This document shows positions 5,091 to 20,707 of a stretch of 32,000 nucleotides of DNA, one piece after another (the first letter of the stretch is position 1; each line of letters starts with the position of its first letter). The stretch comes from Candidatus Saccharimonadota bacterium (lineage in GTDB: Bacteria > Patescibacteriota > Patescibacteriia > 2-12-FULL-60-25), in NCBI GenBank assembly GCA_963718585.1, contig OY970357.1, forward strand, positions 480,001 through 512,000, read 5' to 3'. A model generated the notes under the pieces. That model was given only the letters and a program-made list of their open reading frames with translations, did not search any database and had not been told where the DNA came from. The position numbers and the translations under genes were made by a program.

Positions 5091-5519
5091 CTATCGGCGG
5101 TTGCGTGGATATCTTTCCGCGATGAGTCGTAAAGCCCGCGCCAAAAGCTTGTCTAGGTTCTTATATCCGCTGACAGAGAAGACTTCCGATGTCCGCGCCC
5201 ACTGTCCTTCGTAGATCGCGCCTTCTCCGGTCAGGACTTCTTTCGCATCTGCCGGTGCCTCGAACAGGAAGAGATGCACCACCTTCAGGATCACGGTCCC
5301 CTGCCGGCGGAAACGGAATGAGGTCCGTCCCAATGGGGCGATGAAGGTCAGCTGATCCAACCCCGTCTCCTCTTTGATCTCGCGCACCGCGGTTTCGACC
5401 GTCGTTTCTCCGGCTTCTTGGTGTCCTTTCGGAAACGTCCATCGACCGAACGGATCTTTGATGAAAAACACTTCCGCCACGCCATTTCGGCGACGGAAGA
5501 TGATCCCTCCGGCACTCAC
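5091..5519 (-). CDS. Nudix hydrolase (142 aa from GTG 5519; 186 aa if ATG 5651 is used)
   Basis: Nudix box GHQEAGETTVETAVREIKEETGL. The ATG at 5651 would overlap the upstream protease gene by 113 nt. The only other in-frame start is GTG 5517-5519 (VSAGGIIFRR...), 20 nt after the protease stop. Confidence 0.8.
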   Translation of the reverse strand: MSAGGIIFRRRNGVAEVFFIKDPFGRWTFPKGHQEAGETTVETAVREIKEETGLDQLTFIAPLGRTSFRFRRQGTVILKVVHLFLFEAPADAKEVLTGEGAIYEGQWARTSEVFSVSGYKNLDKLLARALRLIAERYPRNRR

Positions 5520-5538
5520 TTCGTGCCGAAATCCTGTA

Positions 5539-6955: not shown

Positions 6956-8245
6956 ATGCAGAAGGCGCCGTTCCACCGCCGGATCCTCCCATGGATCTTT
7001 GCGATCACATTCATCGCCATGGCGCCCGTCGTGGTTTTTTATACTGCCGGATATCGCTGGAACCCGAAAAAAGCCACTATCGAGCGCAATGGGACGCTTA
7101 TCATAGATACGACCCCGTCTGGGGCGACGATCACCATCGATGATCGAGTGATCCCGGAACGATCACCAGTCACCCTGCAAGACATGTCTCCGGGACGCCA
7201 CCGCCTCCGGATCGATGAAGACGGCTATCATCCGTGGGAAAAATCCCTTGAACTGTACGCGGAACACGTGACATTCGCGAACGATATCCGTCTGTGGAAG
7301 GATGCGCCCCCAGTCATGAAATTGACGGACGCCGCACGCGTCATCAGTACCTCACCGGACCAGCGGCACGCACTTCTGCTCACCGATGCCACGACTTCAC
7401 ACGCCCTCCTCATCGATCTTTCATCCTATCGGACCCTGGCCCTGAATGGCACGCTCGCGTTGAACGGTCGGACTGACGTCAGCTGGTCATCGAACGGACG
7501 GTATGCCCTTGTGCAGTCTGAGACGACATCAACGACCTATCTCATCGATACCGGCGGAAATGGGGTACAAAAACTTCCGAACGGCACGTATCGATGGGAG
7601 TCCGGACGGTTGGTCGGCAATACAGGGACATCTCTCCTGACCATCGGTCTTTCCAACGGTGCGGTCTCGGAGCAATCGCTCAAGCCCCATCAATATGATC
7701 TTTGGGAAGACGGGACCATTGAGATCGCGACGGGGACCGGCGATCTGATCTACGTTCCACGCACGTCGAATGCGGTCGGATTCCTCCTCCCGCCCGGTCA
7801 CTGGTTGGGATGGGATAATTCCGCGCCGAATCAAGATCTCCTCCGCGACGGCACCCGCTGGCTTTCCCTCGATCTCAGCGGTTCCAACCCGCAGTATCAT
7901 CTGGCGAACGGTGACATCCCACGAGCGCTGGTCATCGATCACATTCGCGAATATCTCCTCTTGAATGGGAATGAGATCTGGATGTGGGATCCATTACATG
8001 AACCCGTTTTGCTGATGCGTCAAAGCCAGGAACTGACGGATGTCGCTTGGCATCCTGATGGCTCTGATATCTTTTACAGCACGAAGACGGGACTCTTCGC
8101 CCTCAATCTCGATCAGCGTGACGGTCGGATGACGACCCAACTTGGGTCATTCGATCTCATCCGCCGATTCTCGATGACAAAAGACAGCTTGCTCATAGCA
8201 GGTATCAAAGATGGCAAAGACGGGTTGTGGGAGATCCCTCTCTAG
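6956..8245 (+). CDS. Membrane-anchored PEGA-domain protein with a probable beta-propeller-like C-terminal region (429 aa)
   Basis: N-terminal TM ILPWIFAITFIAMAPVVVFY. PEGA-like module GTLIIDTTPSGATITIDDRVIPERSPVTLQDMSPGRHRLRIDEDGYHPWEKSLEL. Later repeats have a TolB/WD-like flavour (VSWSSNGRYALV, VAWHPDGSDIFYST). The ORF opens at TTG 6944; I prefer ATG 6956. Confidence 0.75.
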   Translation: MQKAPFHRRILPWIFAITFIAMAPVVVFYTAGYRWNPKKATIERNGTLIIDTTPSGATITIDDRVIPERSPVTLQDMSPGRHRLRIDEDGYHPWEKSLELYAEHVTFANDIRLWKDAPPVMKLTDAARVISTSPDQRHALLLTDATTSHALLIDLSSYRTLALNGTLALNGRTDVSWSSNGRYALVQSETTSTTYLIDTGGNGVQKLPNGTYRWESGRLVGNTGTSLLTIGLSNGAVSEQSLKPHQYDLWEDGTIEIATGTGDLIYVPRTSNAVGFLLPPGHWLGWDNSAPNQDLLRDGTRWLSLDLSGSNPQYHLANGDIPRALVIDHIREYLLLNGNEIWMWDPLHEPVLLMRQSQELTDVAWHPDGSDIFYSTKTGLFALNLDQRDGRMTTQLGSFDLIRRFSMTKDSLLIAGIKDGKDGLWEIPL

Positions 8246-8248
8246 CGA

Positions 8249-8683
8249 TCACCAATCGAACGGGATCTGCTCGATGGGCAGATTCGAACCCTCCCCTTGC
8301 CGCCACGCCTCCGTCGGAACGTTCAAAACAAACGCGTCACTCTCTGACACGTTTTGAAAGGCGTACGCCACCCCAGGCGGGATGGTGAGCAGCCGATACT
8401 CCTCGTCCGTCGGCGCGAGGAACACCTCCTGCGTCTCCTCCTTCGTCGCGGAACCTTCCCGAAGGTCGCGCAGAACGAAGCGGATCCGACCGTGAGGCAC
8501 GGCCATGTTTCCGGTATTCGTCGTGTGCAATTTCCACCCTTTGATCACCCCCGGGGCGACCTGGGAGACGTATGTCTCACCGAATGAGGAAAAATACGGA
8601 TCGTCAGACCGGAGAACGCGATAGACCGCCCCACGATCGTCGCGGGCGATCTTGAGCGGCGTGATCGCGACCCCCTCGATCAT
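8249..8683 (-). CDS. RmlC-like cupin (sugar-nucleotide 3,5-epimerase-like), 144 aa
   Basis: MIEGVAITPLKIARDDRGAVYRVL...IKGWKLHTT...GRIRFVLRDLR...PPGVAYAF follows the RmlC/dTDP-sugar-isomerase pattern. Its ATG 8681-8683 lies 2 nt after the stop of the dehydratase gene. Confidence 0.7.
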   Translation of the reverse strand: MIEGVAITPLKIARDDRGAVYRVLRSDDPYFSSFGETYVSQVAPGVIKGWKLHTTNTGNMAVPHGRIRFVLRDLREGSATKEETQEVFLAPTDEEYRLLTIPPGVAYAFQNVSESDAFVLNVPTEAWRQGEGSNLPIEQIPFDW

Positions 8684-8685
8684 AC

Positions 8686-9729
8686 TCAGGACAATTGCGC
8701 GTCGCTCAATCCGGTCTCCGCAGCCTGCTTCTTCTTGAAGTAGTTCCGATACCACGCAACCGTCTCGGCCAATCCTTCATCCAACGTATATTGCGGTTTC
8801 CAGCCAAGCAGCTTCAAAGCCTTTTCACTCGACAATGTCTGTTCATGGATCTCCGCCTTTGCCTGATTGAGGATCTTCGGTTTGAGATCCGACCCCATCG
8901 CCTTGAGGATCGCATCCACGATCTTGATCACGTCCATGCCGTTTCCGGTCGAGAAGTTGAATGCCTGACCCACGATCTCCGGACGATCCATATTCTCCGC
9001 GAACGTCAGATACGCATTGGCCGCATCCCGGACGTAGAAATAGTCACGGATGAATTTTCCATCGCTACGGATCAGCGGTTCTTCATCGTGGATGATGTGC
9101 TTGATCGTCTCCGGCACGACGCGCTGCCAGTTGAGATCGCCCGGTCCATACAAATTCCCACAGCGCGTGACCCCCACCGGAAGCTTGTAGGTGTTGTAGT
9201 ACATCTGTGCGATGAGGTCGGTGCAGGATTTGGAAACATCGTACGGATGCGTGCCCTTGAGCGGCGCCTCTTCGGTGTACGGGAGCACGGGCTGAGGACC
9301 GTAGGCTTTGTCGGATGATGCGACGAGAACGCGGGTGATGAGCGGCGAGACGCGCGCGGCCTCGAGGACGTTGCACGTGCCCATGATGTTCGCGCGGAGT
9401 GTCGGGAGCGGAGCGCGATTGCCGACCGGCGCGATCGGCTGAGCGCCGACGTGGAATACCGTATCCACCTCGTATTCGTTCAACGCACGATACATGGTGA
9501 AATAATTCTCGAAATCACCATGCACGATGTTGATCGACTTGATGGCCGGCGTCTCGAAGAGACGGCTTGATGGCACATGATCGCGCTTGAGGACGGTCAC
9601 GCGCGCACCAGCCTCGTGCAGCATCTCAGCGATGTGCGATCCGAGGAGTCCGAAGGCGCCGGTGACGAAGACGCTGCGGTTGTTCCAGAACTTCTTCCGT
9701 TCCGGAGTCAGGAGGGATTTGGTGGCCAT
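8686..9729 (-). CDS. rfbG: NAD-dependent sugar-nucleotide 4,6-dehydratase, CDP-glucose 4,6-dehydratase-like (347 aa)
   Basis: KKFWNNRSVFVTGAFGLLGSHIAEML (FWxxxxVFVTG, as in RfbG). Also FHVGAQP, SSDKAYG, and PYDVSKSCTDL (YxxxK). It shares the island with rfbF. I start at internal ATG 9727-9729; the 121-codon upstream extension overlaps the next gene and is Arg/Ser-rich junk. Confidence 0.7.
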   Translation of the reverse strand: MATKSLLTPERKKFWNNRSVFVTGAFGLLGSHIAEMLHEAGARVTVLKRDHVPSSRLFETPAIKSINIVHGDFENYFTMYRALNEYEVDTVFHVGAQPIAPVGNRAPLPTLRANIMGTCNVLEAARVSPLITRVLVASSDKAYGPQPVLPYTEEAPLKGTHPYDVSKSCTDLIAQMYYNTYKLPVGVTRCGNLYGPGDLNWQRVVPETIKHIIHDEEPLIRSDGKFIRDYFYVRDAANAYLTFAENMDRPEIVGQAFNFSTGNGMDVIKIVDAILKAMGSDLKPKILNQAKAEIHEQTLSSEKALKLLGWKPQYTLDEGLAETVAWYRNYFKKKQAAETGLSDAQLS

Positions 9730-9777
9730 ATCTAGGTTCAAAACGTTGCCATGGAACTCTGAGACCGTCAACCGAGC

Positions 9778-9811
9778 AAAAAACACCCTCCCCGGACGAC
9801 CGAAGAGGGTG
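9778..9811 (-). terminator. Rho-independent terminator after the DUF218-like gene
   Basis: The minus strand reads CACCCTCTTCGG-TCGT-CCGGGGAGGGTG followed by TTTTTT. That gives a 12-bp stem (two G.U pairs) with a TCGT loop, 28 nt downstream of the stop at 9839. Confidence 0.65.
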
Positions 9812-9838
9812 AAGGGATGATCGGGAACCCCGAGGGAC

Positions 9839-10606
9839 TCACCCGATCTGGAAGTACTCGACCGCCTCCTGCGGGCGGAGATCGAGACACGTGCGGATGC
9901 ACGTCTCGCGCCAACCCATCCGGATCTTTTGGACCTCTGAAGACAGATCGATGCCCATGTTCCGCCCGATGCACTTGTGCAGGTCCGGTGAGAAACACAG
10001 GTCCGCGAATCGCACATCCGTCCCGAGCCACTGGACCTCCTCCCACCTTCCGAATGGCATGGGAATGAAGTGAGGACGGATGCCCGCATCACGGCATCCG
10101 TATCCGACGGTCGTGAGGTAGCGGGGCATGTGATAGAGCGGAGCGACCATGACGACCTGCTTCGCGTCGATCGCCTTGAGCCATGCCGGGATCAACTTCC
10201 CTTGATCCCCGGTATTATCACTGACGCCGTCGACGCTGATGCTCACAAATAACACGGACCGGTCATCGAGACGATCACCAACGAATTGCGCGAGCTGTAT
10301 CGCGGTCATTTCCCCGCAGGATGGCCGTTTGGCTCTTCGGCCGCTCACAAGGAGATCGACCTTCGTTTTCGTATCGACGTGCTGGCTCAAGAGCGACGTC
10401 ACCGGACCGAGTCCGCCGAAGCCCCCGGCATTGGTCCACGCGATCGCCCGAACGCCATCCATGGACCAACGCGGCACATGGACGTCCGTCGCCCAGACGA
10501 GGAATCTCAGGAACGCATCGGCGTCCACATCTGCTTCTTCGCACATGGCGCGGACATGCTCTTTGTACGGCGAGATGGCCGCATGAAAGGACGGATTTAC
10601 GATCAA
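9839..10606 (-). CDS. DUF218/YdcF-like (SanA/ElyC family) protein, 255 aa
   Basis: DLLVSGRR...GEMTAIQLAQFV...SDNTGDQG...QVVMVAPLYHMPRYL matches the YdcF-type pattern (SGG...E...S.NT.EN...VTS.yHm.R). I place the start at TTG 10604-10606, which has a perfect AGGAGG (10613-10618) 6 nt upstream. The ORF track opens at another TTG, 10648. Confidence 0.6.
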   Translation of the reverse strand: MIVNPSFHAAISPYKEHVRAMCEEADVDADAFLRFLVWATDVHVPRWSMDGVRAIAWTNAGGFGGLGPVTSLLSQHVDTKTKVDLLVSGRRAKRPSCGEMTAIQLAQFVGDRLDDRSVLFVSISVDGVSDNTGDQGKLIPAWLKAIDAKQVVMVAPLYHMPRYLTTVGYGCRDAGIRPHFIPMPFGRWEEVQWLGTDVRFADLCFSPDLHKCIGRNMGIDLSSEVQKIRMGWRETCIRTCLDLRPQEAVEYFQIG

Positions 10607-10650
10607 GGCACACCTCCTTTTTTTTGCAGCCTTGAGGAGCTGATTCAATC

Positions 10651-10678
10651 AAAAAAAGACCCGGTCGTCAACCGGATC
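10651..10678 (-). terminator. Rho-independent terminator/attenuator immediately after rfbF
   Basis: The minus strand reads GATCCGGT-TGACG-ACCGGGTC followed by TTTTTTT. This is an 8-bp stem including one G.U pair, and its 5' arm overlaps the rfbF TGA. Confidence 0.5.
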
Positions 10679-11501
10679 AGACCGTTTCCCAGATCCGCCA
10701 TTTAGGATCCGCCCGCCACATTTGTTCCAGATCGTTCTTGTCCTTGGCCGTGTCCATCGAATGCCAGAACCCTTCGTGCGGATACATGGCGATCTTCCGA
10801 TCCGCGGATGCATCGATGAGTGCCTCTTCGATCATCTGATCCTTTTTGCAATAGTTGAGGAAATCCTTATGCAGGACCATGAATCCACCGTTCGTCCAAT
10901 CCGGGAGGAGTGGTTTCTCCGTGAACGAATTCACGATATGGTCTGCATCAGGCACGACGAGGCCGTATTTGGATTTCGGATGGATGCCCGTGATCGTCCC
11001 GGAAATGCCATGTTTCCCCCGTTTGTCGCCATGGAACGTACGAAGCGCCGCGAGATCCACGTCCGCGACGCCATCGCCATAGGTCAGCATGAACTCGTCT
11101 GTATCGATGTACTTCGCCGCGCGCAACAGGCGCTCACCCGTCAGCGTGGAAAGTCCCGTGTCCGCGAACGTGATATTGAAATCATCGCCCGGGTCTTCGA
11201 GCATCGTCGTCTGGTTCGATCCGAGGTCAAGCCGGAAGTCACGCGTCAGATGACGGACGTTGATGAAATAATCCTTGATCTGGTCGCCGCGATAGCCGAG
11301 GCAGAGTATGAAATTCCGGTACCCCTGATGCGCATAGATCTTCATGACGTGCCATAAGATCGGCCGTCCGCCGACCTCCACCATGGGTTTGGGTTTGAAT
11401 TCCGTTTCCTCGCGCATGCGCGTCCCCATGCCGCCACACATGATGACGACGGGAATGGATTGACGGGAGGTGTTCTGCTCCATAAGATGCTGGCCAGTCA
11501 T
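10677..11501 (-). CDS. rfbF: Glucose-1-phosphate cytidylyltransferase (274 aa)
   Basis: VIMCGGMGTRMREETEFKPKPMVEVGGRPILWHVMKIYAHQGYRNFILCLGYRGDQIKDYF and ...GGFMVL...EGFWHSMDTAKDKNDLEQMW are both near-canonical RfbF sequence. Confidence 0.92.
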   Translation of the reverse strand: MTGQHLMEQNTSRQSIPVVIMCGGMGTRMREETEFKPKPMVEVGGRPILWHVMKIYAHQGYRNFILCLGYRGDQIKDYFINVRHLTRDFRLDLGSNQTTMLEDPGDDFNITFADTGLSTLTGERLLRAAKYIDTDEFMLTYGDGVADVDLAALRTFHGDKRGKHGISGTITGIHPKSKYGLVVPDADHIVNSFTEKPLLPDWTNGGFMVLHKDFLNYCKKDQMIEEALIDASADRKIAMYPHEGFWHSMDTAKDKNDLEQMWRADPKWRIWETV

Positions 11502-11510
11502 GACAGGCGC

Positions 11511-11539
11511 ATTCTACGGACCGCTTGCCCGACTGTCAA
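11511..11539 (-). promoter_or_regulatory. Consensus-grade sigma70 promoter for rfbF (TTGACA-17-TAGAAT)
   Basis: On the minus strand the -35 TTGACA is at 11539..11534, followed by a 17-nt spacer and the -10 TAGAAT at 11516..11511. Only 9 nt remain before ATG 11501, so the mRNA is near-leaderless. Confidence 0.6.
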
Positions 11540-11556
11540 ACCGGAAATTACGCGAA

Positions 11557-12441
11557 ATGGACCCAAAAACCGACCATCCGGACATCAGCGTGATCATCGT
11601 GAGCTGGAACGTCCGGGAGCTTCTCCGGGCCAATCTGACGCGACTCTTCTCGCTCAAGACCGATGCGAATATCGAGGTCTTTGTGGTCGACAATTATTCG
11701 CATGACGGCACGGCGTGGATGGTGCGGAAAGAATTTCCCCAGGTCCATCTCATCACGAATGCATGGGATGCAGGATTCGCCGGTCCGAACGACCAGGCGC
11801 TCCGGCTCGCGAAAGGCGACATCTGCATCTTGCTCAATCCGGACATGCTTGTCGATGAAGGCGCGTTCGAGCGCGCCGCCAAGGAGCTCATCCAAGACCG
11901 CGGTATCGGCGTGCTCGGGATCAAACTCATCGGCCAAAACGGAAAACCAGTGAGCAATGTCCGCCGCTTCCCGACCTTCGGTTCCCAACTCGCGATCCTC
12001 CTGAAACTCCAACACCTTTTTCCGAGCCTTGTCGCGCGGTACATGGCAACGGATTTCGATTATGACCGATCACAGGATGTGGATCAGGTCCGCGGATCCT
12101 TCTTCGCCTTTCGACGCGAAATGCTCGAACGCGTGGGCTATCTCGACGATGGCTATCATATCTGGTTCGAAGAAGTCGACTTTTGCAAACGGGTGAAGGC
12201 GAAAGGTTTGCGCGTCCGGTACTGCGCCGACGCACGGGCGCGTGATTACGTCGGAAAAAGTGCGTCGCAGATGTCACGATTGAGCGCTCAACGGATCTTC
12301 ACGGCGAGCATGGTCCGCTATTTCCGCAAATGGCACCCATCCTGGCAGGCGTATACCATCGCCGCTCTGAGACCCATCGCACTTGCGTCAGCCGCAGGAG
12401 CAGACGCCGTCACTTGGATGAAAAATAGGATGTTCGTATGA
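11557..12441 (+). CDS. GT2 glycosyltransferase, WbbL/rhamnosyltransferase-like (294 aa)
   Basis: ISVIIVSWN...VVDNYSHDGT...NAGFAGPNDQA...LLNPDMLVDEG...WFEEVDFCKRVKAKG. I start at internal ATG 11557. Its stop overlaps the next start in an ATGA at 12438-12441. Confidence 0.85.
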   Translation: MDPKTDHPDISVIIVSWNVRELLRANLTRLFSLKTDANIEVFVVDNYSHDGTAWMVRKEFPQVHLITNAWDAGFAGPNDQALRLAKGDICILLNPDMLVDEGAFERAAKELIQDRGIGVLGIKLIGQNGKPVSNVRRFPTFGSQLAILLKLQHLFPSLVARYMATDFDYDRSQDVDQVRGSFFAFRREMLERVGYLDDGYHIWFEEVDFCKRVKAKGLRVRYCADARARDYVGKSASQMSRLSAQRIFTASMVRYFRKWHPSWQAYTIAALRPIALASAAGADAVTWMKNRMFV

Positions 12442-14264
12442 AGGCCGCTCTCCAACTCTCCTGTTACAACGGCGGGCGGTATCTCCCCTATCTTTTCGCT
12501 TCCCTCAAACACCAGACGTTCCGCAACTGGGAATTACACGTCCTCGACAACGCCTCGGATGAGGAGAATGCAACTCTCATCCGATCCGCCGTGGAGAATG
12601 CCGGCTTCCCGATCATCCTTGATCGCGTTGATCAGAACATCGGATTCGCCGGCGCACATGACCGTCTCTTTTCTTCGCGATCTCCAGACGCAGAATACGC
12701 TGTCCTGTTGAATGATGACGCGATCCTTGAAAAAGATTTCCTCGAACGGCTGATCGCCTTTCTTGATTCGCATCCTGCGTGTGCATCTGCATCCGGGACG
12801 ATCCTCCGATGGGACTTCGACAAACGCGACGAACCGGATCAGGGGCGTACGGGCATCGTGGACTCCCTTGGCCTTGCGGTCGGATGGAATGGCTTCGTCA
12901 AAGACGTTGGCGCCGGTCTTCGTTTTTCCGAAGCGAACGCCCCACATACGCCAACAAAGATCTTCGGACCTTCCGGCTGTTTGCCCATCTATCGCGTGTC
13001 CGCTGTTCTTGCAACGAGCCCGGACGGCGCGCTCTTTGATGCCGCCTATGGCTCGTACAAAGAAGATACGGAACTTGCCTATCGTCTCCGTGCCGCTGGA
13101 TCCACATCCATGATCGTTCCAGATGCCGTCGCCTATCATCGTCGATCGTTCCGCGCCGGACAGACGAAACGGGCCGAACATCCGTATGCATACGAGTCGT
13201 TCCGCAATCACCTATGGATGGACCTCGTCCACCTTCCGATCGGTTCGCTCATGACCAACCGCTGTCTCGTCGTCCCGGCGGAATTGGCAAAGATCGCTTA
13301 TTGGAGCGTGAAACGTCCGTCATTCATCGCGCGTCTGTGGCAGGACACGTCCCGACGTTGGGACGACCTCATGCGCCGCCGCACCCATGCGGCACATCTC
13401 CGCGCTCATCGCGGTCGTCTCACTGCGCCCTACCCGAAACCCACGGCAGATATCAACATCGTCATCGTCTCGCATAATGAATTGAGCATTGAAACGCTTC
13501 GATCCGTACAGACCGCACGCGAGCGATTCCGCGGCACGACCGCACTCGTGGTCGTGGACAACGCATCGACCGAATACCGTGCGAATGAACTGATATCTTC
13601 CATCATTCCGGATGCATGGGTCCTCCTCCGCAACGGCGATCACGGATACGGCCGCTCCATGAACATGGGCGCGGACTGGGTGGACGCAAAAGCCTATTTC
13701 ATCCTCAATCCGGACACCTTGCTCGACGATCCGGAGATCCTCAACCGGCTGTGGGCGTATCTTGATTCCCACGCAGACGTCGGACTCGTGGGTCCAAAAC
13801 TGCTGAACTTCTCAGGTGAATTGCAGGACACCTGCCGCCGCTTCCCGGCCTGGTACCAGCCGCTCATCCAGCGCACCTCACTCAAGCAGACCGCGTTCGG
13901 AAAAAGATACCTTTCACATTTTCTCTTGAAAGACGCGGATCGGACACGCGACATGGATGTAGATTGGGTTCAGGGCTCGGCCATGTTCGCGCGCGGCGAC
14001 GTCTGGAAGAAGCTCGGCGGTTTCGATGATCGGTATTGGCTCTACTTCGAAGATATCGATCTTTGTCGACGGGTTTGGCATTCTGGAAAACGCGTGGTCT
14101 GCACCGTGGATACGCAACTGCGTCACGCGCACGGTCGGCAATCTGCGAAGATCCGCAACATGATCATGAATATCCTCAAGACCAAGGAGACGCGCGGTCA
14201 TCTCAACAGCTGGCGGAAATATCTCTGGAAGTGGAAATTCGTCTCACATCCCCGATCACAGTGA
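12438..14264 (+). CDS. Double-module GT2 glycosyltransferase (608 aa, two GT2 domains in tandem)
   Basis: Module 1: LSCYNGGRYLPYLFASLKHQT...VLDNASDEEN...GFAGAHD...LLNDDAILEKDF...YKEDTELAYRLRAAG. Module 2: INIVIVSHN...VVVDNASTEY...GYGRSMN...ILNPDTLLDD...YFEDIDLCRRVWHSG. Confidence 0.85.
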   Translation: MKAALQLSCYNGGRYLPYLFASLKHQTFRNWELHVLDNASDEENATLIRSAVENAGFPIILDRVDQNIGFAGAHDRLFSSRSPDAEYAVLLNDDAILEKDFLERLIAFLDSHPACASASGTILRWDFDKRDEPDQGRTGIVDSLGLAVGWNGFVKDVGAGLRFSEANAPHTPTKIFGPSGCLPIYRVSAVLATSPDGALFDAAYGSYKEDTELAYRLRAAGSTSMIVPDAVAYHRRSFRAGQTKRAEHPYAYESFRNHLWMDLVHLPIGSLMTNRCLVVPAELAKIAYWSVKRPSFIARLWQDTSRRWDDLMRRRTHAAHLRAHRGRLTAPYPKPTADINIVIVSHNELSIETLRSVQTARERFRGTTALVVVDNASTEYRANELISSIIPDAWVLLRNGDHGYGRSMNMGADWVDAKAYFILNPDTLLDDPEILNRLWAYLDSHADVGLVGPKLLNFSGELQDTCRRFPAWYQPLIQRTSLKQTAFGKRYLSHFLLKDADRTRDMDVDWVQGSAMFARGDVWKKLGGFDDRYWLYFEDIDLCRRVWHSGKRVVCTVDTQLRHAHGRQSAKIRNMIMNILKTKETRGHLNSWRKYLWKWKFVSHPRSQ

Positions 14265-14266
14265 AT

Positions 14267-15427
14267 ATGGAACTTCCCCGCGTCGCCATCATCTACCTGA
14301 CGTACAACGGCAAAGATTCGTACGAGGACATCACGCGCGTCTTCACATCACTGACCACACTCGACTATCCGCGCGACCGCGTAGAGATCATTTGCGTTGA
14401 GAATCCGTCCGCGCATGGCGCGAGCTGGCCATTCATCGAAAAAGAGTGGTACCCGCGCGTGGGCGTGGATTTTCCTGCCATTACGATCGAGAAGAACGAG
14501 AAGGATGGCGGATACTCCGGCGCGAATGATGTCGGCGCGCGCATTGCAAAGGAGCACGGGTGCGCGTATGTCTTTTTGCTCAACCAGGACACGGACATCG
14601 ATCCAAAGTTCCTCCGTGCCGCCGTGGAGCGCGCAGAATCCGACCCCAAGATCATGCTGGTCCAGTCATTGCTCCTGCTCGGACAGGACCGGAACCTGGT
14701 CAACTCGGTCGGCAACCGCTATCACTTCCTCGGCTTTGGCTATGCGGGCGGCAACGGTTGGACCGTGGATCAGGCACGGAGCTGGATCGAAACGGAACGG
14801 AAGACGAATCCGGACCTGGAAGTCCCGTACGTGAGCGGCGCCGCGGTACTCGTCCGCCTTTCCATGGTCGACCAGATCGGACTTTTTGATGCGCCGTTCT
14901 ACATGTACCACGAGGATGTGGACGCCACATTCAACGCGCGCATCCATGGATGGAAATCCGTTTTGGAACCTTCAAGCGTCGTGTATCACTACTACGCGTT
15001 CTCCAAGAGCATCAAGAAATTCTACTGGATGGAGCGGAACCGCTTCATGGTGGATCTCACGTATTACAAACTCCTCACTCTGCTCCTCATGGCTCCCGCC
15101 TTCTTCGGGGTGGAATGTGCGAGCATGCTCTTCGCGATCAAGGGTGGCTGGTGGCGCGAAAAAGGCCGTGCATGGGCTTTTTATTGGCGCCCATCGACGT
15201 GGGCGTGGGTCGCAAAGCGCCGATCCCGCGCGATGAAGGAACGCATCATCTCCGATCGGGAATTCTTGAAATGGGCGGACAGCAAGATCCTCTTTCAGGA
15301 ACAGTCACCCGGTGACAGCGACAATGCGTCGCTCAAAAAAGACGTCGGCGGCTCACTGGTCCAGCGCGTCGCCAATCCCCTTCTCACCGCGTACTGGAAA
15401 CTGATCTACACCCTGATCCGCTGGTGA
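14267..15427 (+). CDS. GT2 glycosyltransferase with C-terminal membrane segment (386 aa)
   Basis: VAIIYLTYNGKDS...ICVENPS...GGYSGANDVG...FLLNQDTDIDPKF...MYHEDVDATFNARIHG, with TM LLTLLLMAPAFFGVECASMLFAI. I start at internal ATG 14267, 2 nt after the previous stop. Confidence 0.85.
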   Translation: MELPRVAIIYLTYNGKDSYEDITRVFTSLTTLDYPRDRVEIICVENPSAHGASWPFIEKEWYPRVGVDFPAITIEKNEKDGGYSGANDVGARIAKEHGCAYVFLLNQDTDIDPKFLRAAVERAESDPKIMLVQSLLLLGQDRNLVNSVGNRYHFLGFGYAGGNGWTVDQARSWIETERKTNPDLEVPYVSGAAVLVRLSMVDQIGLFDAPFYMYHEDVDATFNARIHGWKSVLEPSSVVYHYYAFSKSIKKFYWMERNRFMVDLTYYKLLTLLLMAPAFFGVECASMLFAIKGGWWREKGRAWAFYWRPSTWAWVAKRRSRAMKERIISDREFLKWADSKILFQEQSPGDSDNASLKKDVGGSLVQRVANPLLTAYWKLIYTLIRW

Positions 15428-16828
15428 TCAGATGTCGAATCCGAATCGGTTCAATATCTCCACCGCCTCCAGGTTCTCGGACAGTTCCGGATAGCGGTAA
15501 TCGTCTTTGTCATACGGCGTGGACCCGAGCCCGAGAAACGTGGTCCGCACATCCGTCAACGGGACATAGGTATGATAGACCCCGGCCGGGACACGCAGTC
15601 TCGGCATTTTTTCATTCGTCTCCAGCGTAAAGACCGGAACATCGTGCGACGTATCTGGCGCATCGATCCCCAGGATCACGCCGACGGTCTTGCCTCTGGT
15701 CGGAGAATCTACGCGAAGATCAGACAGGATCCATAACCCGACACCGGACATCGGCACGAACAATTCATGCAAAACAGGATGATAATGGCCGCCACGGAAC
15801 ACGCCGCGCCCTTTGGCGGATGTCGCATAGATATCCTGCAGATCGTGGCCGAATCCCGCGGAGTTCCGCGTGCCGCCTGGAAGGACATGTAAGACCGCGC
15901 CCGCCTCATCTCCGATCCGCGGTTGGAGCTCGACCGCAACGCCGCCGATCCCCAACGCGTGCCATGTTGGCGTGAATGGCGGTGGTGACGAATGCAGGTA
16001 TTCGCGTAATGCCTCTTTCCAGTCCCGCATCTTCGGTAGTTTTGTTGATGTCAGCACGCTGTAATCCGGACGTGCGGCCGGACGTTTGAGTGATGACGGA
16101 TCGCGCGGCGCAAACTCTACCGGGAGATCAAGGATCTTCCCGATCTCGCACGCCCACTCATGCCACGTGGCACCGCCTTCATTCGTCATGTGATAGACCC
16201 CCGGCGCTGGGCGTTGTTTCAAGAAATGTTCATCGAGATGACGCGCGACGTCATCTACATATGTTGGCGCGGACCGTTCCCCGCTGTTCACCAGCACGCG
16301 TGCCGCTTTTTGTGCATCATTCACGATGATCTCAACGAAACTCGGCTTGGATCCCGGTTCATCCGCCATCGGCCCATACAGACGAGAGAGACGGATCACG
16401 TAGGCGTCCGTATTTTCACGGAGCACTGCCTGTTCGCCCGCGAGCTTGGACGCGCCATAGACGCTGATCGGATCCGTTGCATCATCTTCCACGTACGGCG
16501 TGTCCGATGTCCCGTTAAATACATAATCTGACGAGAAGTGGATGAACCCCATCCCAAGCCGCTTTGTGGTCTCCGCAAGCATCTTCGGCATCTCGCCATT
16601 GAGCCGCATGGCGATAGCTCTGCCATCCCCCTCCGCACCATCGACATTGTTGTAGGCAACGCAATTGATAGCCATTTCCGGAGCTTCGGTGCGTAAAAAC
16701 GCCTCGACCGCCTGAGGGTCAAGGTGATCGAAGGCATCCGGCGCCGGAGCGACCACCTCATGATGTGGCCACGATCGACGCATGGCGCTCCCAAGACGCC
16801 CGGAACCACCTAATATCACGATCTTCAT
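15428..16828 (-). CDS. Fusion protein: RmlD-like sugar-nucleotide 4-reductase (N-terminal ~285 aa) + cupin/RmlC-WxcM-like domain (C-terminal ~175 aa), 466 aa
   Basis: N-terminal part: MKIVILGGSGRLGSAM...INCVAYNNVDGAE...HFSSDYVFNG...PISVYGASKLAGEQ...VIRLSRLYG, which is the RmlD pattern with YxxxK. C-terminal part: IGGVAVELQPRIGDEAGAVLHVL...FRGGHYHPVLHELFVPMSGVGLWIL...VPAGVYHTY, which is a cupin. Confidence 0.8.
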   Translation of the reverse strand: MKIVILGGSGRLGSAMRRSWPHHEVVAPAPDAFDHLDPQAVEAFLRTEAPEMAINCVAYNNVDGAEGDGRAIAMRLNGEMPKMLAETTKRLGMGFIHFSSDYVFNGTSDTPYVEDDATDPISVYGASKLAGEQAVLRENTDAYVIRLSRLYGPMADEPGSKPSFVEIIVNDAQKAARVLVNSGERSAPTYVDDVARHLDEHFLKQRPAPGVYHMTNEGGATWHEWACEIGKILDLPVEFAPRDPSSLKRPAARPDYSVLTSTKLPKMRDWKEALREYLHSSPPPFTPTWHALGIGGVAVELQPRIGDEAGAVLHVLPGGTRNSAGFGHDLQDIYATSAKGRGVFRGGHYHPVLHELFVPMSGVGLWILSDLRVDSPTRGKTVGVILGIDAPDTSHDVPVFTLETNEKMPRLRVPAGVYHTYVPLTDVRTTFLGLGSTPYDKDDYRYPELSENLEAVEILNRFGFDI

Positions 16829-16859: not shown

Positions 16860-17270
16860 TCAACCAATGGAACTTCGGATCTTTTCCGCGATCTGCTCCG
16901 CCTCACCTTCAGCGTAGGGCCTCCCGGGCCAATGTTTCAATCCATCGTCTGCCCGACGCGGCACAACATGCACATGAAGATGCGCGATCACCTGGCCTGC
17001 GATCGCACCATTATTCTCTTCGAGATTGAACGCCTCACAGATCCCGCTTGTCACAAGAGCCCTTGAAACCGACTGCGTTGCACGGATGAGCCGATCCAAT
17101 GTTTCCGTGTCCGCCGCATTGAATCCTTCTACGTGCACCTTCGGCACAACGAGGACGTGCCCCGGATTCACGGGATTGATATCGAGGAACGCGTAGATAT
17201 GATCATCTTCGTACACGGACGTGGACGGGATCTCTTTGGCGATGATCTTGCAAAAAAGGCAGTCAGACAT
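16860..17270 (-). CDS. HIT-family (Hint-like) nucleotide hydrolase/transferase (136 aa)
   Basis: CLFCKIIAKEIPS...DINPVNPGHVLVVPK...GQVIAHLHVHVVPR (the histidine triad HxHxHxx). Confidence 0.9.
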   Translation of the reverse strand: MSDCLFCKIIAKEIPSTSVYEDDHIYAFLDINPVNPGHVLVVPKVHVEGFNAADTETLDRLIRATQSVSRALVTSGICEAFNLEENNGAIAGQVIAHLHVHVVPRRADDGLKHWPGRPYAEGEAEQIAEKIRSSIG

Positions 17271-17282
17271 ATGGGATGATGA

Positions 17283-17645
17283 TCACTCTGTTCTACCGAA
17301 GATGGCGACAAGCGACAAGACGGCGATGACGCCATAGGCACCGAGGAGCACCAGTCCGCTCAACCCCAACGCATTGATGCGTGTCCACAGAAAGAACCCG
17401 CCGAACAGCAACGCAAGCGCGATGAACACGACTTGGAGGATCTGTGACACGCGTCCTGTTTCCGACGGCATCGCAGCAGACGCGACGAGGAGTGCGGCAA
17501 CGACGATCCCCGTATCCGGCAGATCAAGGAACGGGGAGACTGACCCGGGAAGCAAACGTTCCAAAACGAGCAAGAGGACATAGCCACACGTCGCGGCTGC
17601 GGCCGCATGGAAAAAGGATCGCTGGAGAAAATGCTTCAGGGTCAT
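17283..17645 (-). CDS. Small 4-TM membrane protein (120 aa), unknown family
   Basis: I start at ATG 17643-17645 (MTLKHFLQ...), which forms an ATGA overlap with the stop of the upstream gene. There are four hydrophobic segments. I recognise no family motif. Confidence 0.6.
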   Translation of the reverse strand: MTLKHFLQRSFFHAAAAATCGYVLLLVLERLLPGSVSPFLDLPDTGIVVAALLVASAAMPSETGRVSQILQVVFIALALLFGGFFLWTRINALGLSGLVLLGAYGVIAVLSLVAIFGRTE

Positions 17646-19093
17646 AACCGGTGCCATGCATTCGCCAATTCCTGACGAAGGATCTTCCACCAATCTCCAA
17701 AGGTCACAGCCTGACGATGGAAGGTCAGATCGATCTTTCGGATGTCGATCGCCCCGGCGCGTGCCATGAGGCCTGGTGCGGACACCACGAAACGCAGATT
17801 ATCGAGCGTCGGGTCCACGGTGAAGCTTCCCGTATATCGATACCACCCGTCACCAAGCGCCTGCGGACGCGTGTACGGCGTCAGGACCGCGGTGATCCCG
17901 TCTCGCTCCAACTGCGTCCCATCTGACATCCGTCGCGGACGCGGTTCAAAGAACGCATCTTGTCGCAAGGCGAAAAACCCATCGCCGACGAATCGGACAT
18001 CCCCTTTTTCCGCAGAAAGTTCCACCGGCGTGGTGATGTCATCGGTCCGGTCAAGGCGGATCTGCGTATGCGTTGCCGGTATGCGTCCAGATGTCGGTCC
18101 AAGATCCACCTGTTGGAGACCCTCTACATGGAATGTCTCGGCCACGATATGGCGTGAATTGGTCCATGCGATCGCCGGCGAAGTGGTCGCGGAATAGCCG
18201 ACCAGATCACCGAACACGAGACGCGGTCCTACGACCCACCGACGACTATCTGTCTCGATCGCGCGGATGAAGACATCGTCTTGTGCCGTGATGCTGATCC
18301 GATAGATGCCTACGTCCGCGTTCGGGACATCGACCGTGTGTGTGAAGGCGGCCCCCATCGTCGCATCACGACTCCCGGACAAAGTGACCGTCTCTCGCGA
18401 GATCTCCGTATCATCGCGGAACACGCGGATCGCGGCGACATCCCCTCCCGTTGTCCGATTCACTGCCTGAAGCGTGAACGTCATATGCACATGGCCATCC
18501 GGAACGATCCAAAAATCATGCGAGCCGCGTAACGAAACCACGGTTTTGACGCTCGGCCCAGGCGGATCCGCGATGTTCGGCCACGAGGCGGTCGCATCCC
18601 AGACCGCAAGACCACGCGTATCCGGGTTCGAGAGACGGACGGGCAGCGTTCCCTGTTTGACGTATCCGGACATCGCCCCTGATATCACCGGGGTCCAAGC
18701 AGCTGACGCAAGTTCGGAGGAATACATGGGCTGAAGTTCCAGATCTTGCCCAGCTGCATCACGCACGATCCCGAAATCCGCCAATGGCTGTCGGATCGGA
18801 CGAAACTCCATCGAAACATCCACCTTTTCGTACGGGCCGGGGGCATGCACCGTAAAATAGACTGGATCCGCCGTGATCCGCTGACCGGTCCACCCATCCG
18901 CCTGGACGCCCGGACTCGTCGTCCGCAACGCAGGCAAAAAAGGCATGATCCACGCACTCTTTCCATCAACGTCCGATGAAGCATGAAAAACCCCGGATGG
19001 CGGAAACCGAAGCAGAACGAGCCACCCCACACCAAACGCCACGATGATCCATGGCAGAGCAAAGAGGACGGAAACGAGTCGTGGAAGCTTCAT
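17642..19093 (-). CDS. N-terminally anchored extracytoplasmic protein (483 aa), no recognisable domain
   Basis: N-terminal TM LVSVLFALPWIIVAFGVGWLVLL followed by ~450 aa of beta-strand-like sequence (e.g. HMTFTLQAVNRTTGGDVAAIRVFRDD, IYRISITAQDDVFIRAIE). It is ATGA-coupled on both sides (19090-19093 and 17642-17645). Confidence 0.7.
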   Translation of the reverse strand: MKLPRLVSVLFALPWIIVAFGVGWLVLLRFPPSGVFHASSDVDGKSAWIMPFLPALRTTSPGVQADGWTGQRITADPVYFTVHAPGPYEKVDVSMEFRPIRQPLADFGIVRDAAGQDLELQPMYSSELASAAWTPVISGAMSGYVKQGTLPVRLSNPDTRGLAVWDATASWPNIADPPGPSVKTVVSLRGSHDFWIVPDGHVHMTFTLQAVNRTTGGDVAAIRVFRDDTEISRETVTLSGSRDATMGAAFTHTVDVPNADVGIYRISITAQDDVFIRAIETDSRRWVVGPRLVFGDLVGYSATTSPAIAWTNSRHIVAETFHVEGLQQVDLGPTSGRIPATHTQIRLDRTDDITTPVELSAEKGDVRFVGDGFFALRQDAFFEPRPRRMSDGTQLERDGITAVLTPYTRPQALGDGWYRYTGSFTVDPTLDNLRFVVSAPGLMARAGAIDIRKIDLTFHRQAVTFGDWWKILRQELANAWHRL

Positions 19094-20634: not shown

Positions 20635-20707
20635 GGTCTCAGTGTATCATGGATGGCTTGCTTTTTCGTATCTTCTGGTCTCCATTCGGATATGCTAGGG
20701 TGGCATT

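What the first reader, a model, noticed from the sequence alone, without database searches (positions are those of the whole stretch)
8249..16828. Rhamnose-pathway logic apparently rebuilt on a CDP scaffold (RfbF + RfbG-like + RmlC-like + RmlD::cupin), with no 3-deoxygenation genes
Seen: one island holds a textbook glucose-1-P cytidylyltransferase (10677-11501) and an RfbG-like 4,6-dehydratase (8686-9729). Two nt downstream of the dehydratase is a stand-alone RmlC-like cupin (8249-8683). An RmlD-like 4-reductase fused to a second cupin lies at 15428-16828.

Established: the known CDP-hexose routes (abequose, paratose, tyvelose, ascarylose) require the PMP/Fe-S dehydrase E1 (DdhC) and its reductase E3 (DdhD). 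The combination of 3,5-epimerase and 4-reductase belongs to the dTDP-L-rhamnose (RmlC/RmlD) pathway. No E1/E3-like ORF and no RmlA/RmlB pair is present in this window.

Inference: the island may make a CDP-activated 6-deoxy-L-hexose (rhamnose-like), which is not the textbook activation chemistry. The four WbbL-like GT2 modules next door would then polymerise it.
Basis: partly seen in the sequence, partly recalled or inferred. Interest (0 to 1): 0.72.

Follow-up and report, generated by a model that had tools for sequence, protein, structure and literature searches.

The report
CDP-based rhamnose-like sugar pathway in CPR bacteria
A small-genome (Patescibacteria-type) bacterium has swapped the first two enzymes of its usual dTDP-rhamnose cell-surface sugar pathway for CDP-glucose enzymes and two unusual epimerase-like proteins; CDP-based 6-deoxy-sugar pathways of this kind are already known, but this combination and its product are not.

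Summary
All four genes sit at the stated coordinates. The window has no E1/E3 gene and no RmlA/RmlB pair.

The nucleotidyltransferase is 41% identical to a proven CTP-specific enzyme. The dehydratase carries the S-D-K motif of the CDP type. In a tree it is sister to verified CDP-glucose 4,6-dehydratases (99% bootstrap) and separate from RmlB.

Comparison of 85 loci that carry an RmlD gene, nearly all from Patescibacteria, shows that the island is a variant of a conserved envelope-glycan locus. Seventy-six loci carry canonical RmlA/RmlB/RmlC genes. Nine carry this CDP-type set instead, and no locus has both. Fusions link the steps: DH::cupin A in relatives and RmlD::cupin B here. The nearest dTDP-type relatives have an RmlD::RmlC fusion with the same layout.

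CDP-6-deoxyhexose routes without 3-deoxygenation have been demonstrated in C. jejuni HS:41 (2025), and a CDP-4-keto-6-deoxyglucose epimerase (Yersinia WbcA) has been characterised.

Three things are new here:
- the RmlD-family reductase;
- two RmlC-fold cupins that lack RmlC's Lys and Tyr;
- the in-place swap of nucleotide.

The product is probably a CDP-6-deoxy-L-hexose, possibly CDP-L-rhamnose, but this is inferred. I file it as a new variant of a known kind.

The parts
10677..11483 (-). Glucose-1-phosphate cytidylyltransferase-like enzyme (RfbF/YfnH type). An alternative ATG start lies at 11501.
   Evidence: TIGR02623 at 256 bits is the best family but falls below the cutoff of 300. PDB 1tzf matches at 1.6e-58. 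The protein is 41% identical (2e-67) to the CTP-specific HS41.21 and shares the KPKPMVE-GG-PILWH motif.
9839..10606 (-). Intervening 255-aa ORF, weakly DUF218-like. It is specific to this lineage and probably not part of the pathway.
   Evidence: No family at E<0.01. DUF218 at E=0.011. It is absent from the homologous clusters L002, L004 and L006.
8686..9729 (-). NAD-dependent NDP-glucose 4,6-dehydratase of the CDP type (YfnG-like sister clade of RfbG).
   Evidence: TIGR02622 at 183.6 bits against TIGR01181 at 151. It carries the S-S-D-K and Y-x3-K motifs, as in the verified HS41.20. In the NJ tree it is sister to RfbG with 99% bootstrap, and RmlB is separate.
8249..8683 (-). Cupin A: a short RmlC-fold cupin of the 3ejk family, a putative epimerase acting on CDP-4-keto-6-deoxyglucose.
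   Evidence: PF00908 at 41 bits. The AF2 model has pLDDT 93, and Foldseek finds 3ejk at TM 0.95 and RmlC/WbcA at 0.79-0.85. It is fused to the dehydratase in L002, L004 and L010. The family sits in a canonical RfbF-RfbG-cupin-SDR cassette in Paenibacillus.
11500..12441 (+). GT2a glycosyltransferase.
   Evidence: PF00535. It is 55-58% identical to the GT2a of the dTDP-type Uhrbacteria loci L020 and L038. Group-1 monophyly is 100/100.
12438..14264 (+). GT2b, with two GT2 modules in one protein.
   Evidence: Two PF00535/PF13641 stretches. It is split into two genes in the dTDP-type loci.
14267..15427 (+). GT2c glycosyltransferase, with one predicted TM segment.
   Evidence: PF13641/PF00535. Gene call from L001. 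TM prediction.
15989..16828 (-). RmlD domain: an NAD(P)H-dependent 4-ketoreductase of the RmlD family.
   Evidence: TIGR01214 at 208 bits, the same score as the RmlD domain of a canonical CPR locus (209.5). GxxGxxG, S99, Y124 and K128 are invariant. PDB 1vl0 matches at 2.6e-33.
15428..15973 (-). Cupin B: a rare RmlC-fold cupin domain fused to the C-terminus of RmlD. It carries the signature H348-x-H350...E355...H419.
   Evidence: AF2 pLDDT 96.2. Foldseek's top hits are RmlC, NovW, EvaD, ChmJ and WbcA at TM 0.64-0.72. Only 53 representative clusters exist among 1.84 billion proteins. It occurs only with the CDP-type genes. It is a separate gene in L006.
16860..17270 (-). HIT-family nucleotide hydrolase/transferase, syntenic with the sugar genes.
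   Evidence: PF01230 at 4.5e-27. It is conserved next to RmlB/RmlD in both locus types.
17283..20634 (-). Three conserved membrane or exported proteins in one operon with HIT and RmlD::cupin B: 120-136 aa with 4 TM segments; 483 aa with an N-terminal anchor; and 514 aa with about 10 TM segments and weak GT-C similarity.
   Evidence: TM prediction. PIG-M at E=0.011. Homologues are syntenic in L003, L006, L020, L038 and L049.
7019..8245 (+). PEGA-domain exported protein flanking the island. It is conserved at the edge of the locus in both locus types.
   Evidence: PF08308 at 7e-12. Homologues in L006, L020, L049 and L060.

Best explanation
The island is a lineage-specific variant of the conserved Patescibacteria envelope-glycan locus. 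In most relatives that locus carries the dTDP-L-rhamnose genes. Here the activating and dehydrating enzymes are of the CDP type.

Proposed steps:
1. [quoted passage not shown]
2. The S-D-K dehydratase makes CDP-4-keto-6-deoxy-D-glucose.
3. Two RmlC-fold cupins invert C3 and/or C5 through an enolate. Cupin A is coupled to the dehydratase and cupin B to the reductase.
4. The RmlD domain reduces C4 with NAD(P)H. This yields a CDP-6-deoxy-L-hexose, with L-rhamnose the leading candidate.
5. The four adjacent GT2 modules then use this sugar. The membrane proteins of the same operon pass the glycan to the envelope.

No 3-deoxygenation is involved.

Shown: the family assignments, motifs, folds, synteny, fusions and the mutually exclusive distribution. 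Inferred: CTP specificity, which carbon each cupin inverts, the stereochemistry of the reduction, and the acceptor glycan.
For: - **Nucleotidyltransferase.** It is 41% identical to CTP-specific HS41.21. TIGR02623 is by far its best family.
- **Dehydratase.** It shares the S/T-D-K motif with the verified CDP-glucose dehydratase HS41.20, whereas CPR RmlB has T-D/C-E. It groups with RfbG at 99% bootstrap, apart from RmlB.
- **Distribution.** Of 85 RmlD loci, 9 have cupin B. Seven of those 9 have the RfbF-like enzyme, the YfnG-like dehydratase and cupin A; the other two contigs are truncated. None of the 9 has RmlA, RmlB or RmlC. Of the other 76 loci, none has the CDP-type set, 42 have RmlB and 57 have RmlA.
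- **Synteny.** Syntenic dTDP-type loci hold RmlB (417 bits), an RmlD::RmlC fusion (209 + 164 bits) and RmlA (389 bits), in front of orthologous GT2a/b/c genes.
- **Fusions.** DH::cupin A occurs in L002, L004 and L010. RmlD and cupin B are separate genes in L006.
- **Fold.** Both cupins are confidently RmlC-fold. NDP-4-keto-sugar epimerases are the top structural matches, and ketoisomerases score lower.
- **Phylogeny.** The group-1 RmlD and GT2a proteins are monophyletic (100/100), and GT2a is nearest to the RmlD::RmlC loci.
- **Precedent.** The chemistry is demonstrated in PMC12369002.
Against: - Three of the four enzyme assignments fall below NCBIfam's curated cutoffs: 256/300, 184/278 and 208/224.
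- Cupin A scores only 23 bits on the rmlC model, and cupin B does not match it at all.
- Both cupins lack the equivalents of RmlC Lys73 and Tyr133. In this lineage cupin A also has Lys in place of the catalytic His. Epimerase activity and its regiochemistry are therefore uncertain.
- The dehydratase's closest homologues (57-62% identity) are uncharacterised yfnG-like proteins.
- No biochemical data exist for any member.
- The rest of the 1.08-Mb genome could not be searched for rmlAB or ddhCD.
Confidence: 0.6

Rival explanations
1. The front end is CDP-based, but the product is a D-configured 6-deoxyhexose such as CDP-6-deoxy-D-gulose, 6-deoxy-D-allose, D-fucose or quinovose. The cupins would act only at C3, or one would be inactive, and the RmlD-like domain would serve as a generic 4-reductase.
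For: Known CDP routes of this type give 6-deoxy-D-gulose or D-fucose (PMC9095892 Table 1; PMC12369002). The presence of catalytic residues cannot predict C3 versus C5 specificity (PMC9095892). Both cupins lack the Tyr acid used for reprotonation from the opposite face.
Against: The reductase belongs to the RmlD family. From established knowledge, its characterised sugar members act on L-configured 4-keto sugars. The locus is syntenic with true dTDP-L-rhamnose loci, with orthologous GT2 genes. The RmlD::cupin B fusion mirrors an RmlD::RmlC fusion.
Confidence: 0.2
2. The nucleotide is not CDP. The RfbF-like enzyme and the dehydratase have drifted to dTDP- or UDP-glucose, so the island simply makes dTDP- or UDP-L-rhamnose with divergent enzymes.
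For: The nucleotidyltransferase and the dehydratase score below the curated CDP-family cutoffs. The dTDP-dehydratase model scores almost as well as the CDP model (151 against 184 bits). The top PDB hit for the dehydratase is a dTDP enzyme, 128.3 against 127.1 bits.
Against: The nucleotidyltransferase is 41% identical to two CTP-specific enzymes and carries their signature motif. The rmlA models score only about 30 bits. The dehydratase has Asp-Lys rather than Asp-Glu, and the tree places it with the CDP dehydratases. The set never co-occurs with RmlA or RmlB.
Confidence: 0.1
3. The island is part of a 3,6-dideoxyhexose (ascarylose-like) pathway. E1/E3 (DdhC/DdhD) would be encoded elsewhere. 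The cupins and the RmlD domain would play the roles of AscE and AscF.
For: From established knowledge, CDP-ascarylose synthesis ends with a 5-epimerase and a 4-reductase. The rest of the genome was not searched.
Against: No E1/E3-type gene lies in the window or within 10 kb of the cluster in seven related loci. The genome is only about 1.08 Mb. The locus replaces a rhamnose locus.
Confidence: 0.05
4. One cupin is a 3,4-ketoisomerase of the FdtA/QdtA type. The pathway would then run through a 3-keto sugar, which the SDR domain reduces.
For: Both cupins carry an H-x-H-type motif like FdtA/QdtA. Cupin B gives weak FdtA and QdtA sequence matches (PF05523 at 18 bits, 4zu7 at E=0.011). Many cupin A homologues also hit PF05523.
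Against: Structural matches to the epimerases are clearly better than to QdtA/FdtD: TM 0.64-0.72 against 0.56-0.59 with rmsd 6-7 for cupin B, and 0.79-0.85 against 0.70-0.74 for cupin A. RmlD-family enzymes are 4-ketoreductases. No aminotransferase or 3-ketoreductase is present.
Confidence: 0.05

Closest known systems
C. jejuni HS:41 pathway to CDP-6-deoxy-L-altrose and CDP-D-fucose (HS41.21-HS41.17; PMC12369002)
   Same: It runs from Glc-1-P and CTP to CDP-Glc, then CDP-4-keto-6-deoxy-Glc, then an RmlC-fold epimerase, then C4 reduction. It has no E1/E3. The nucleotidyltransferase here is 41% identical to HS41.21 and the dehydratase 27% identical to HS41.20, with the same D-K motif.
   Different: HS41.19 is a canonical RmlC type (RGMHYQ, Lys, Tyr), whereas this island has two non-canonical cupins. 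HS41.18 is an unrelated SDR with no significant similarity to the RmlD domain. No pyranose/furanose mutase is present here. The fusions and the CPR context also differ.
dTDP-L-rhamnose pathway RmlABCD, as found in syntenic Patescibacteria loci (e.g. L038)
   Same: It uses the same four-step logic. The RmlD domain has an equivalent model score (208 against 209.5 bits). The RmlD::cupin fusion has the same architecture. The flanking GT2a/b/c, HIT, membrane-protein and PEGA genes are orthologous.
   Different: RmlA and RmlB are replaced by RfbF-like and CDP-type dehydratase genes. RmlC is replaced by cupin A plus cupin B, which lack Lys73 and Tyr133.
[quoted passage not shown]
   Same: It is an RmlC-fold cupin acting on the CDP-4-keto-6-deoxy sugar. 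It is a structural match to both cupins, at TM 0.69 and 0.85 (PMC9095892 Table 1).
   Different: There is no detectable sequence similarity to cupin A at E<=1. [quoted passage not shown] From memory, the product pathway leads to a D-sugar (6-deoxy-D-gulose).
CDP-3,6-dideoxyhexose pathways (DdhA/B/C/D = RfbF, RfbG, E1, E3)
   Same: The first two steps belong to the same enzyme families.
   Different: This island has no E1/E3. The dehydratase lies in a sister clade, not inside canonical RfbG (184 bits here against 502 bits for Paenibacillus RfbG).
Bacillus/Clostridium yfnHGFED-like clusters (spore-crust glycan genes; biochemical function unknown, PMC7439481)
   Same: They hold the closest homologues of the dehydratase (57-62% identity), each paired with an RfbF-like gene.
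   Different: Those clusters have no cupin and no RmlD. They encode different downstream genes.

Membership tests
Glucose-1-phosphate cytidylyltransferase (RfbF/DdhA, TIGR02623) | Whole-protein score above the curated equivalog cutoff (300.25 bits) | tested here: not met
   256.2 bits. Paenibacillus RfbF scores 398.7.
Glucose-1-phosphate cytidylyltransferase (RfbF/DdhA, TIGR02623) | Full-length similarity to enzymes with demonstrated CTP specificity, and the N-terminal KPKPMVE-GG-PILWH signature | tested here: met
   41% identity over 264 residues to HS41.21 (2e-67), with the motif aligned. PDB 1tzf matches at 1.6e-58. The rmlA models score about 30 bits.
Glucose-1-phosphate cytidylyltransferase (RfbF/DdhA, TIGR02623) | CTP preferred over dTTP, UTP and ATP in an assay | not testable with these tools
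   Needs an enzyme assay.
CDP-glucose 4,6-dehydratase (RfbG/DdhB, TIGR02622) | Score above the curated cutoff (278.45 bits) | tested here: not met
   183.6 bits. It is the best family, but TIGR01181 (dTDP) scores 151.2.
CDP-glucose 4,6-dehydratase (RfbG/DdhB, TIGR02622) | Ser/Thr-Asp-Lys plus Tyr-x3-Lys catalytic motifs (Asp-Lys rather than the Asp-Glu of RmlB) | tested here: met
   SSDKAYG and PYDVSK align to TTDKVY and PYSASK of the verified HS41.20. CPR RmlB has ST(D/C)E.
CDP-glucose 4,6-dehydratase (RfbG/DdhB, TIGR02622) | Phylogenetic placement with CDP-specific rather than dTDP-specific dehydratases | tested here: met
   The NJ tree places it as sister clade to RfbG (HS41.20 plus Paenibacillus) at 99% bootstrap, with RmlB separate at 100%. 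The reference set was small and included no GDP or UDP dehydratases. The gmd model scores only 43 bits.
RmlC dTDP-4-dehydrorhamnose 3,5-epimerase (TIGR01221 / PF00908) | Score above the curated cutoff (155.75 bits) | tested here: not met
   Cupin A scores 22.9 bits. Cupin B has no match to TIGR01221, and PF00908 gives 26.6 bits against a cutoff of 27.
RmlC dTDP-4-dehydrorhamnose 3,5-epimerase (TIGR01221 / PF00908) | RmlC-type domain-swapped cupin fold | tested here: met
   AF2 pLDDT is 96 and 93. The top Foldseek hits are RmlC, NovW, EvaD, ChmJ and WbcA, at TM 0.64-0.72 for cupin B and 0.79-0.85 for cupin A. The dimer swap itself was not modelled.
RmlC dTDP-4-dehydrorhamnose 3,5-epimerase (TIGR01221 / PF00908) | Catalytic His base, Tyr acid and conserved Lys (H64, Y134, K74 in PMC9095892) | tested here: not met
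   The His is kept in cupin B (H348) but is Lys in this window's cupin A. The Lys position is Glu355 in cupin B and Asn in cupin A. The Tyr position is Gly/Leu in cupin B and Asn/Leu in cupin A.
RmlD dTDP-4-dehydrorhamnose reductase (TIGR01214 / PF04321) | Score above the curated cutoff (224.05 bits) | tested here: not met
   208.2 bits. This equals the 209.5 bits of the RmlD domain in locus L038, which has canonical RmlA, RmlB and RmlC. PF04321 scores 220.6 bits, far above its cutoff of 27.
RmlD dTDP-4-dehydrorhamnose reductase (TIGR01214 / PF04321) | GxxGxxG cofactor motif and the Ser/Thr-Tyr-Lys triad | tested here: met
   GGSGRLG, S99, Y124 and K128 are invariant in 10 fused homologues.
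RmlD dTDP-4-dehydrorhamnose reductase (TIGR01214 / PF04321) | Acts on a dTDP-linked substrate | not testable with these tools
   Context argues for a CDP-linked substrate. An assay is needed.
CDP-3,6-dideoxyhexose pathway | Presence of E1 (a PMP/Fe-S DegT-type dehydrase) and E3 (a flavin/Fe-S reductase) | tested here: not met
   No such domain appears in the roughly 30 longest ORFs of the window or in the called genes of L001-L004 and L006. The rest of the genome was not searched.

The most novel reading that the evidence does not exclude
A clade of Patescibacteria makes CDP-L-rhamnose, or another CDP-6-deoxy-L-hexose, as its envelope-glycan donor. No such nucleotide sugar turned up in 8 million papers searched. 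The two epimerisations would be split between two non-canonical RmlC-fold cupins. One of them, cupin B, would use the retained cupin His/His/Glu/His site, possibly with a metal, in place of RmlC's Lys and Tyr. The switch would free glycan synthesis from dTTP in organisms with minimal nucleotide metabolism.
Probability: 0.3. Interest if true: 0.72.

Novelty: new variant of a known kind. Interest (0 to 1): 0.55.

Why it matters
If the inference holds, CDP would join dTDP, UDP and GDP as a carrier for rhamnose-type sugars. It would also be a natural example of a whole pathway switching its nucleotide handle in place while the downstream glycosyltransferases are retained. That is useful for understanding and engineering donor specificity.

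The island also points to two uncharacterised groups of RmlC-fold cupins: the 3ejk-like short family and the rare cupin B family. Their active sites differ from the textbook His/Tyr/Lys set. These groups appear to stand in for RmlC across many Patescibacteria genomes, so rhamnose biosynthesis in this radiation may be mis-scored by the standard models.

Tried and rejected
- **Organism name.** The exact-sequence look-ups returned no name or accession. They showed only a 1,084,458-bp NCBI/ENA contig. The genome is not among the 80 loci kept from the scan of GTDB species-representative genomes.
- **Whole-genome search for rmlABCD/ddhCD.** This was not possible, because only ±10 kb around a gene can be fetched.
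- **Literature.** No paper mentions CDP-L-rhamnose, CDP-rhamnose, CDP-6-deoxy-L-mannose or CDP-6-deoxy-L-talose. The WbcA paper (PMC4594662) is not held, so WbcA is cited through PMC9095892 and PDB 5buv. A search for Patescibacteria together with cytidylyltransferase found nothing.
- **Cupin B as a 3,4-ketoisomerase.** Weak FdtA/QdtA sequence hits prompted the idea. Structural matches to the epimerases are clearly better, so it was downgraded.
- **Cupin B as a diverged copy of the RmlC domain in the RmlD::RmlC fusion.** hhalign puts cupin B slightly closer to the short cupins (4.8e-25 and 2.9e-23) than to classical RmlC (1.5e-17). Its origin is left open.
- **The metal-type cupin signature as a unique feature of cupin B.** It is not unique. 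Nine of 11 short cupins in dTDP-type loci also have it.
- **pyrG adjacency as a functional link.** It is not conserved in related loci and is treated as coincidence.
- **The 468-aa extended ORF 8686-10092.** The N-terminal 121 residues have no support, and the real start is at 9729.

Full report

Yes.

- The nucleotidyltransferase at 10677-11501(-) (gene call 10677-11483) has glucose-1-phosphate cytidylyltransferase TIGR02623 as by far its best family. It scores 256 bits, below the cutoff of 300. It matches the S. typhi enzyme 1tzf at 1.6e-58.
- The SDR at 8686-9729(-) scores best on CDP-glucose 4,6-dehydratase TIGR02622 at 183.6 bits (cutoff 278). The dTDP model follows at 151 bits.
- Two nucleotides downstream lies a 144-aa cupin, here called cupin A. 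It matches PF00908 at 41 bits and PDB 3ejk at 1e-23.
- The gene at 15428-16828(-) encodes an RmlD domain (TIGR01214, 208 bits, cutoff 224) fused to a second cupin, cupin B.
- Three genes at 11500-15427 hold four GT2 modules.
- The longest ORF in each stretch of the window was scanned. None is an E1- or E3-type protein, RmlA or RmlB.

**2. Where does it come from, and is the gene set conserved?**

- The proteins are on record from a single 1,084,458-bp contig. Every informative relative is a Patescibacteria (CPR) genome bin.
- The RmlD::cupin fusion is rare, with about 10 full-length homologues among 5.8 billion clusters.
- Its neighbourhoods repeat the same set: RfbF-like gene, dehydratase, cupin A, three GT2 genes, RmlD and cupin B.
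- The fusion state varies. The dehydratase and cupin A form one protein in L002, L004 and L010. RmlD and cupin B are separate genes in L006.
- Fusions of this kind tie cupin A to the dehydratase step and cupin B to the reductase step.

**3. The key comparison**

I fetched 80 genome loci around RmlD homologues and compared all ORFs with the window proteins and with canonical Rml proteins.

| Locus type | Loci | RfbF-like + CDP-type dehydratase + cupin A | RmlA | RmlB | Classical RmlC |
|---|---|---|---|---|---|
| With cupin B | 9 | 7 (the other 2 are truncated contigs) | 0 | 0 | 0 |
| Without cupin B | 76 | 0 | 57 | 42 | 9 |

- The dTDP-type loci share the window's wider synteny. This comprises the 10-TM protein, the anchored 483-aa protein, the small 4-TM protein, HIT, the sugar genes, GT2a, GT2b (as two genes), GT2c and a PEGA protein.
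- In Uhrbacteria locus L038 the sugar genes pass NCBIfam's curated cutoffs. RmlB scores 417 bits, RmlA_long 389 bits, and an RmlD::RmlC fusion scores 209.5 + 164 bits.
- The window's GT2a is 55-58% identical to the GT2a of L038 and L020.
- The RmlD and GT2a proteins of the CDP-type loci are each monophyletic (100/100). GT2a is nearest to the loci with the RmlD::RmlC fusion.

The island is therefore a rhamnose-type glycan locus whose front end has been exchanged.

**4. Is the nucleotide CDP?**

- The supplement of PMC12369002 gives the sequences of biochemically characterised C. jejuni HS:41 enzymes.
- The window's nucleotidyltransferase is 41% identical (2e-67) to HS41.21. That enzyme accepted CTP but not UTP, ATP or dTTP.
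- The dehydratase is 27% identical to the CDP-glucose dehydratase HS41.20 and shares its Ser/Thr-Asp-Lys motif. CPR RmlB proteins have Thr-Asp/Cys-Glu.
- In a neighbour-joining tree the window's dehydratase forms a 100% clade with other CPR proteins and with ~326-aa proteins of Bacillus, Clostridium and DPANN archaea. That clade is sister to canonical RfbG at 99% bootstrap, and RmlB is separate.
- The Firmicute homologues sit in yfnHGFED-like clusters next to an RfbF-like gene. The biochemistry of those clusters is unknown (PMC7439481).
- The dehydratase is nonetheless not a canonical RfbG, and CTP use remains inferred.

**5. The cupins**

- Cupin A belongs to a widespread ~149-aa family. In Paenibacillus that family sits in a canonical RfbF (399 bits) - RfbG (502 bits) - cupin - SDR cassette.
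- Cupin A is also very close (hhalign 1e-64) to short cupins that stand where RmlC is expected in many dTDP-type CPR loci.
- Cupin B is a small family, with 53 representative clusters among 1.84 billion proteins.
- AlphaFold models are confident, at pLDDT 96 and 93.
- Foldseek places both cupins among NDP-4-keto-sugar epimerases: RmlC, NovW, EvaD, ChmJ, WbcA and 3ejk. The 3,4-ketoisomerases QdtA and FdtD match less well.
- The active sites are not RmlC-like. RmlC uses a His base and a Tyr acid, with a conserved Lys (PMC9095892).

| RmlC residue | Cupin B | Cupin A |
|---|---|---|
| His base | kept (H348) | Lys in this lineage (motif KGWKLH; KGWHxH in most of the family) |
| Conserved Lys | Glu355 | Asn |
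| Tyr acid | Gly/Leu | Asn/Leu |

- Cupin B matches the classical metal-binding cupin signature: G-x5-H-x-H-x4-E-x6-G ... P-x-G-x2-H.
- The short cupins of dTDP-type loci share that signature, so it is not unique to cupin B.
- No tool available here can show which carbon each cupin inverts, or whether a metal is used.

**6. Most likely mechanism**

The proposed route is:
1. CTP + Glc-1-P gives CDP-glucose.
2. 4,6-dehydration follows.
3. Enolate-based inversion at C3 and/or C5 is shared between cupin A (next to the dehydratase) and cupin B (next to the reductase).
4. The RmlD domain reduces C4.
5. The four GT2 modules use the product, and the membrane proteins of the operon export it.

The product is probably a CDP-6-deoxy-L-hexose, with L-rhamnose the first candidate. 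Three observations support this. The reductase is of the RmlD family. The RmlD::cupin architecture mirrors RmlD::RmlC. The downstream glycosyltransferases are orthologous to those of dTDP-L-rhamnose loci.

Confidence is about 0.6 for the class of product and about 0.3 for CDP-L-rhamnose itself.

**7. Comparison with what is known**

[quoted passage not shown] - dTDP-L-rhamnose synthesis is reported as conserved across CPR classes (PMC9166423).
- New here:
  - the RmlD-family reductase (HS41.18 is unrelated);
  - two non-canonical cupins in place of one RmlC;
  - the domain fusions;
  - the mutually exclusive, in-place replacement of the dTDP set.
- No paper in the library mentions CDP-L-rhamnose or its synonyms.

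**8. Verdict**

This is a new variant of a known kind of pathway, of moderate interest (0.55). Biochemical reconstitution is straightforward and would settle the nucleotide, the roles of the two cupins and the product.

Noticed in passing
window 9839-10606 (-): A 255-aa ORF lies between the nucleotidyltransferase and the dehydratase. Its only match is a weak DUF218 hit (E=0.011). It is missing from the homologous clusters L002, L004 and L006, so it looks like a lineage-specific insertion.
   Followed up: partly
window 3393-5057 (-) and 5091-5651 (-): A CTP synthase (pyrG) and a Nudix hydrolase lie about 3 kb from the CDP-sugar genes. The pyrG adjacency is not seen in related loci. Nudix genes do recur next to RmlB in L049.
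   Followed up: partly
window 16860-17270 (-); also L003, L006, L038, L049, L060: A HIT-family gene sits directly upstream of RmlD::cupin B. It is syntenic with the sugar genes in both CDP-type and dTDP-type Patescibacteria loci. Its role in nucleotide-sugar metabolism is unknown.
   Followed up: partly
L038 8961-9983 and L020 8965-9987: The RmlB proteins of these Uhrbacteria loci read S-T-C-E where RmlB normally has the catalytic S-T-D-E (Asp replaced by Cys). They still score 417 bits on the dTDP-glucose dehydratase model.
   Followed up: no
e.g. L054 10022-10477, L064 5266-5718, L018 3776-4231, L021 1790-2251: Sixteen dTDP-type CPR loci carry ~150-aa cupins with an H-x-H motif where RmlC is expected. 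These score only 36-81 bits on the rmlC model (cutoff 155.75), and 9 of 11 keep the classical cupin metal-binding signature. Standard models may therefore under-call RmlC in this radiation.
   Followed up: partly
L087 7232-12013 (Bacillus australimaris), L088 7243-12078 (Clostridium tertium): The window's dehydratase is 57-62% identical to ~326-aa proteins in yfnHGFED-like clusters of Firmicutes and to proteins of Micrarchaeota and Woesearchaeota. Identity this high across such distant lineages suggests horizontal transfer of the RfbF-like/dehydratase pair.
   Followed up: partly
window 26575-31323 (-): A second glycan locus is present. It encodes a 751-aa GT2 protein, a GT4 glycosyltransferase and a Wzx-type flippase.
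   Followed up: no
window 17283-22195: Four conserved proteins have no family assignment: a 4-TM protein, an anchored 483-aa protein, a 10-TM 514-aa protein with a weak PIG-M/GT-C hit, and a secreted 495-aa protein. The first three are syntenic with rhamnose genes across CPR.
   Followed up: partly
L007, L009, L010 and many other loci: Many third-party-annotated genome bins that carry typical CPR-type loci are titled 'uncultured Gammaproteobacteria bacterium'. These titles are probably placeholder or wrong taxonomic labels.
   Followed up: no
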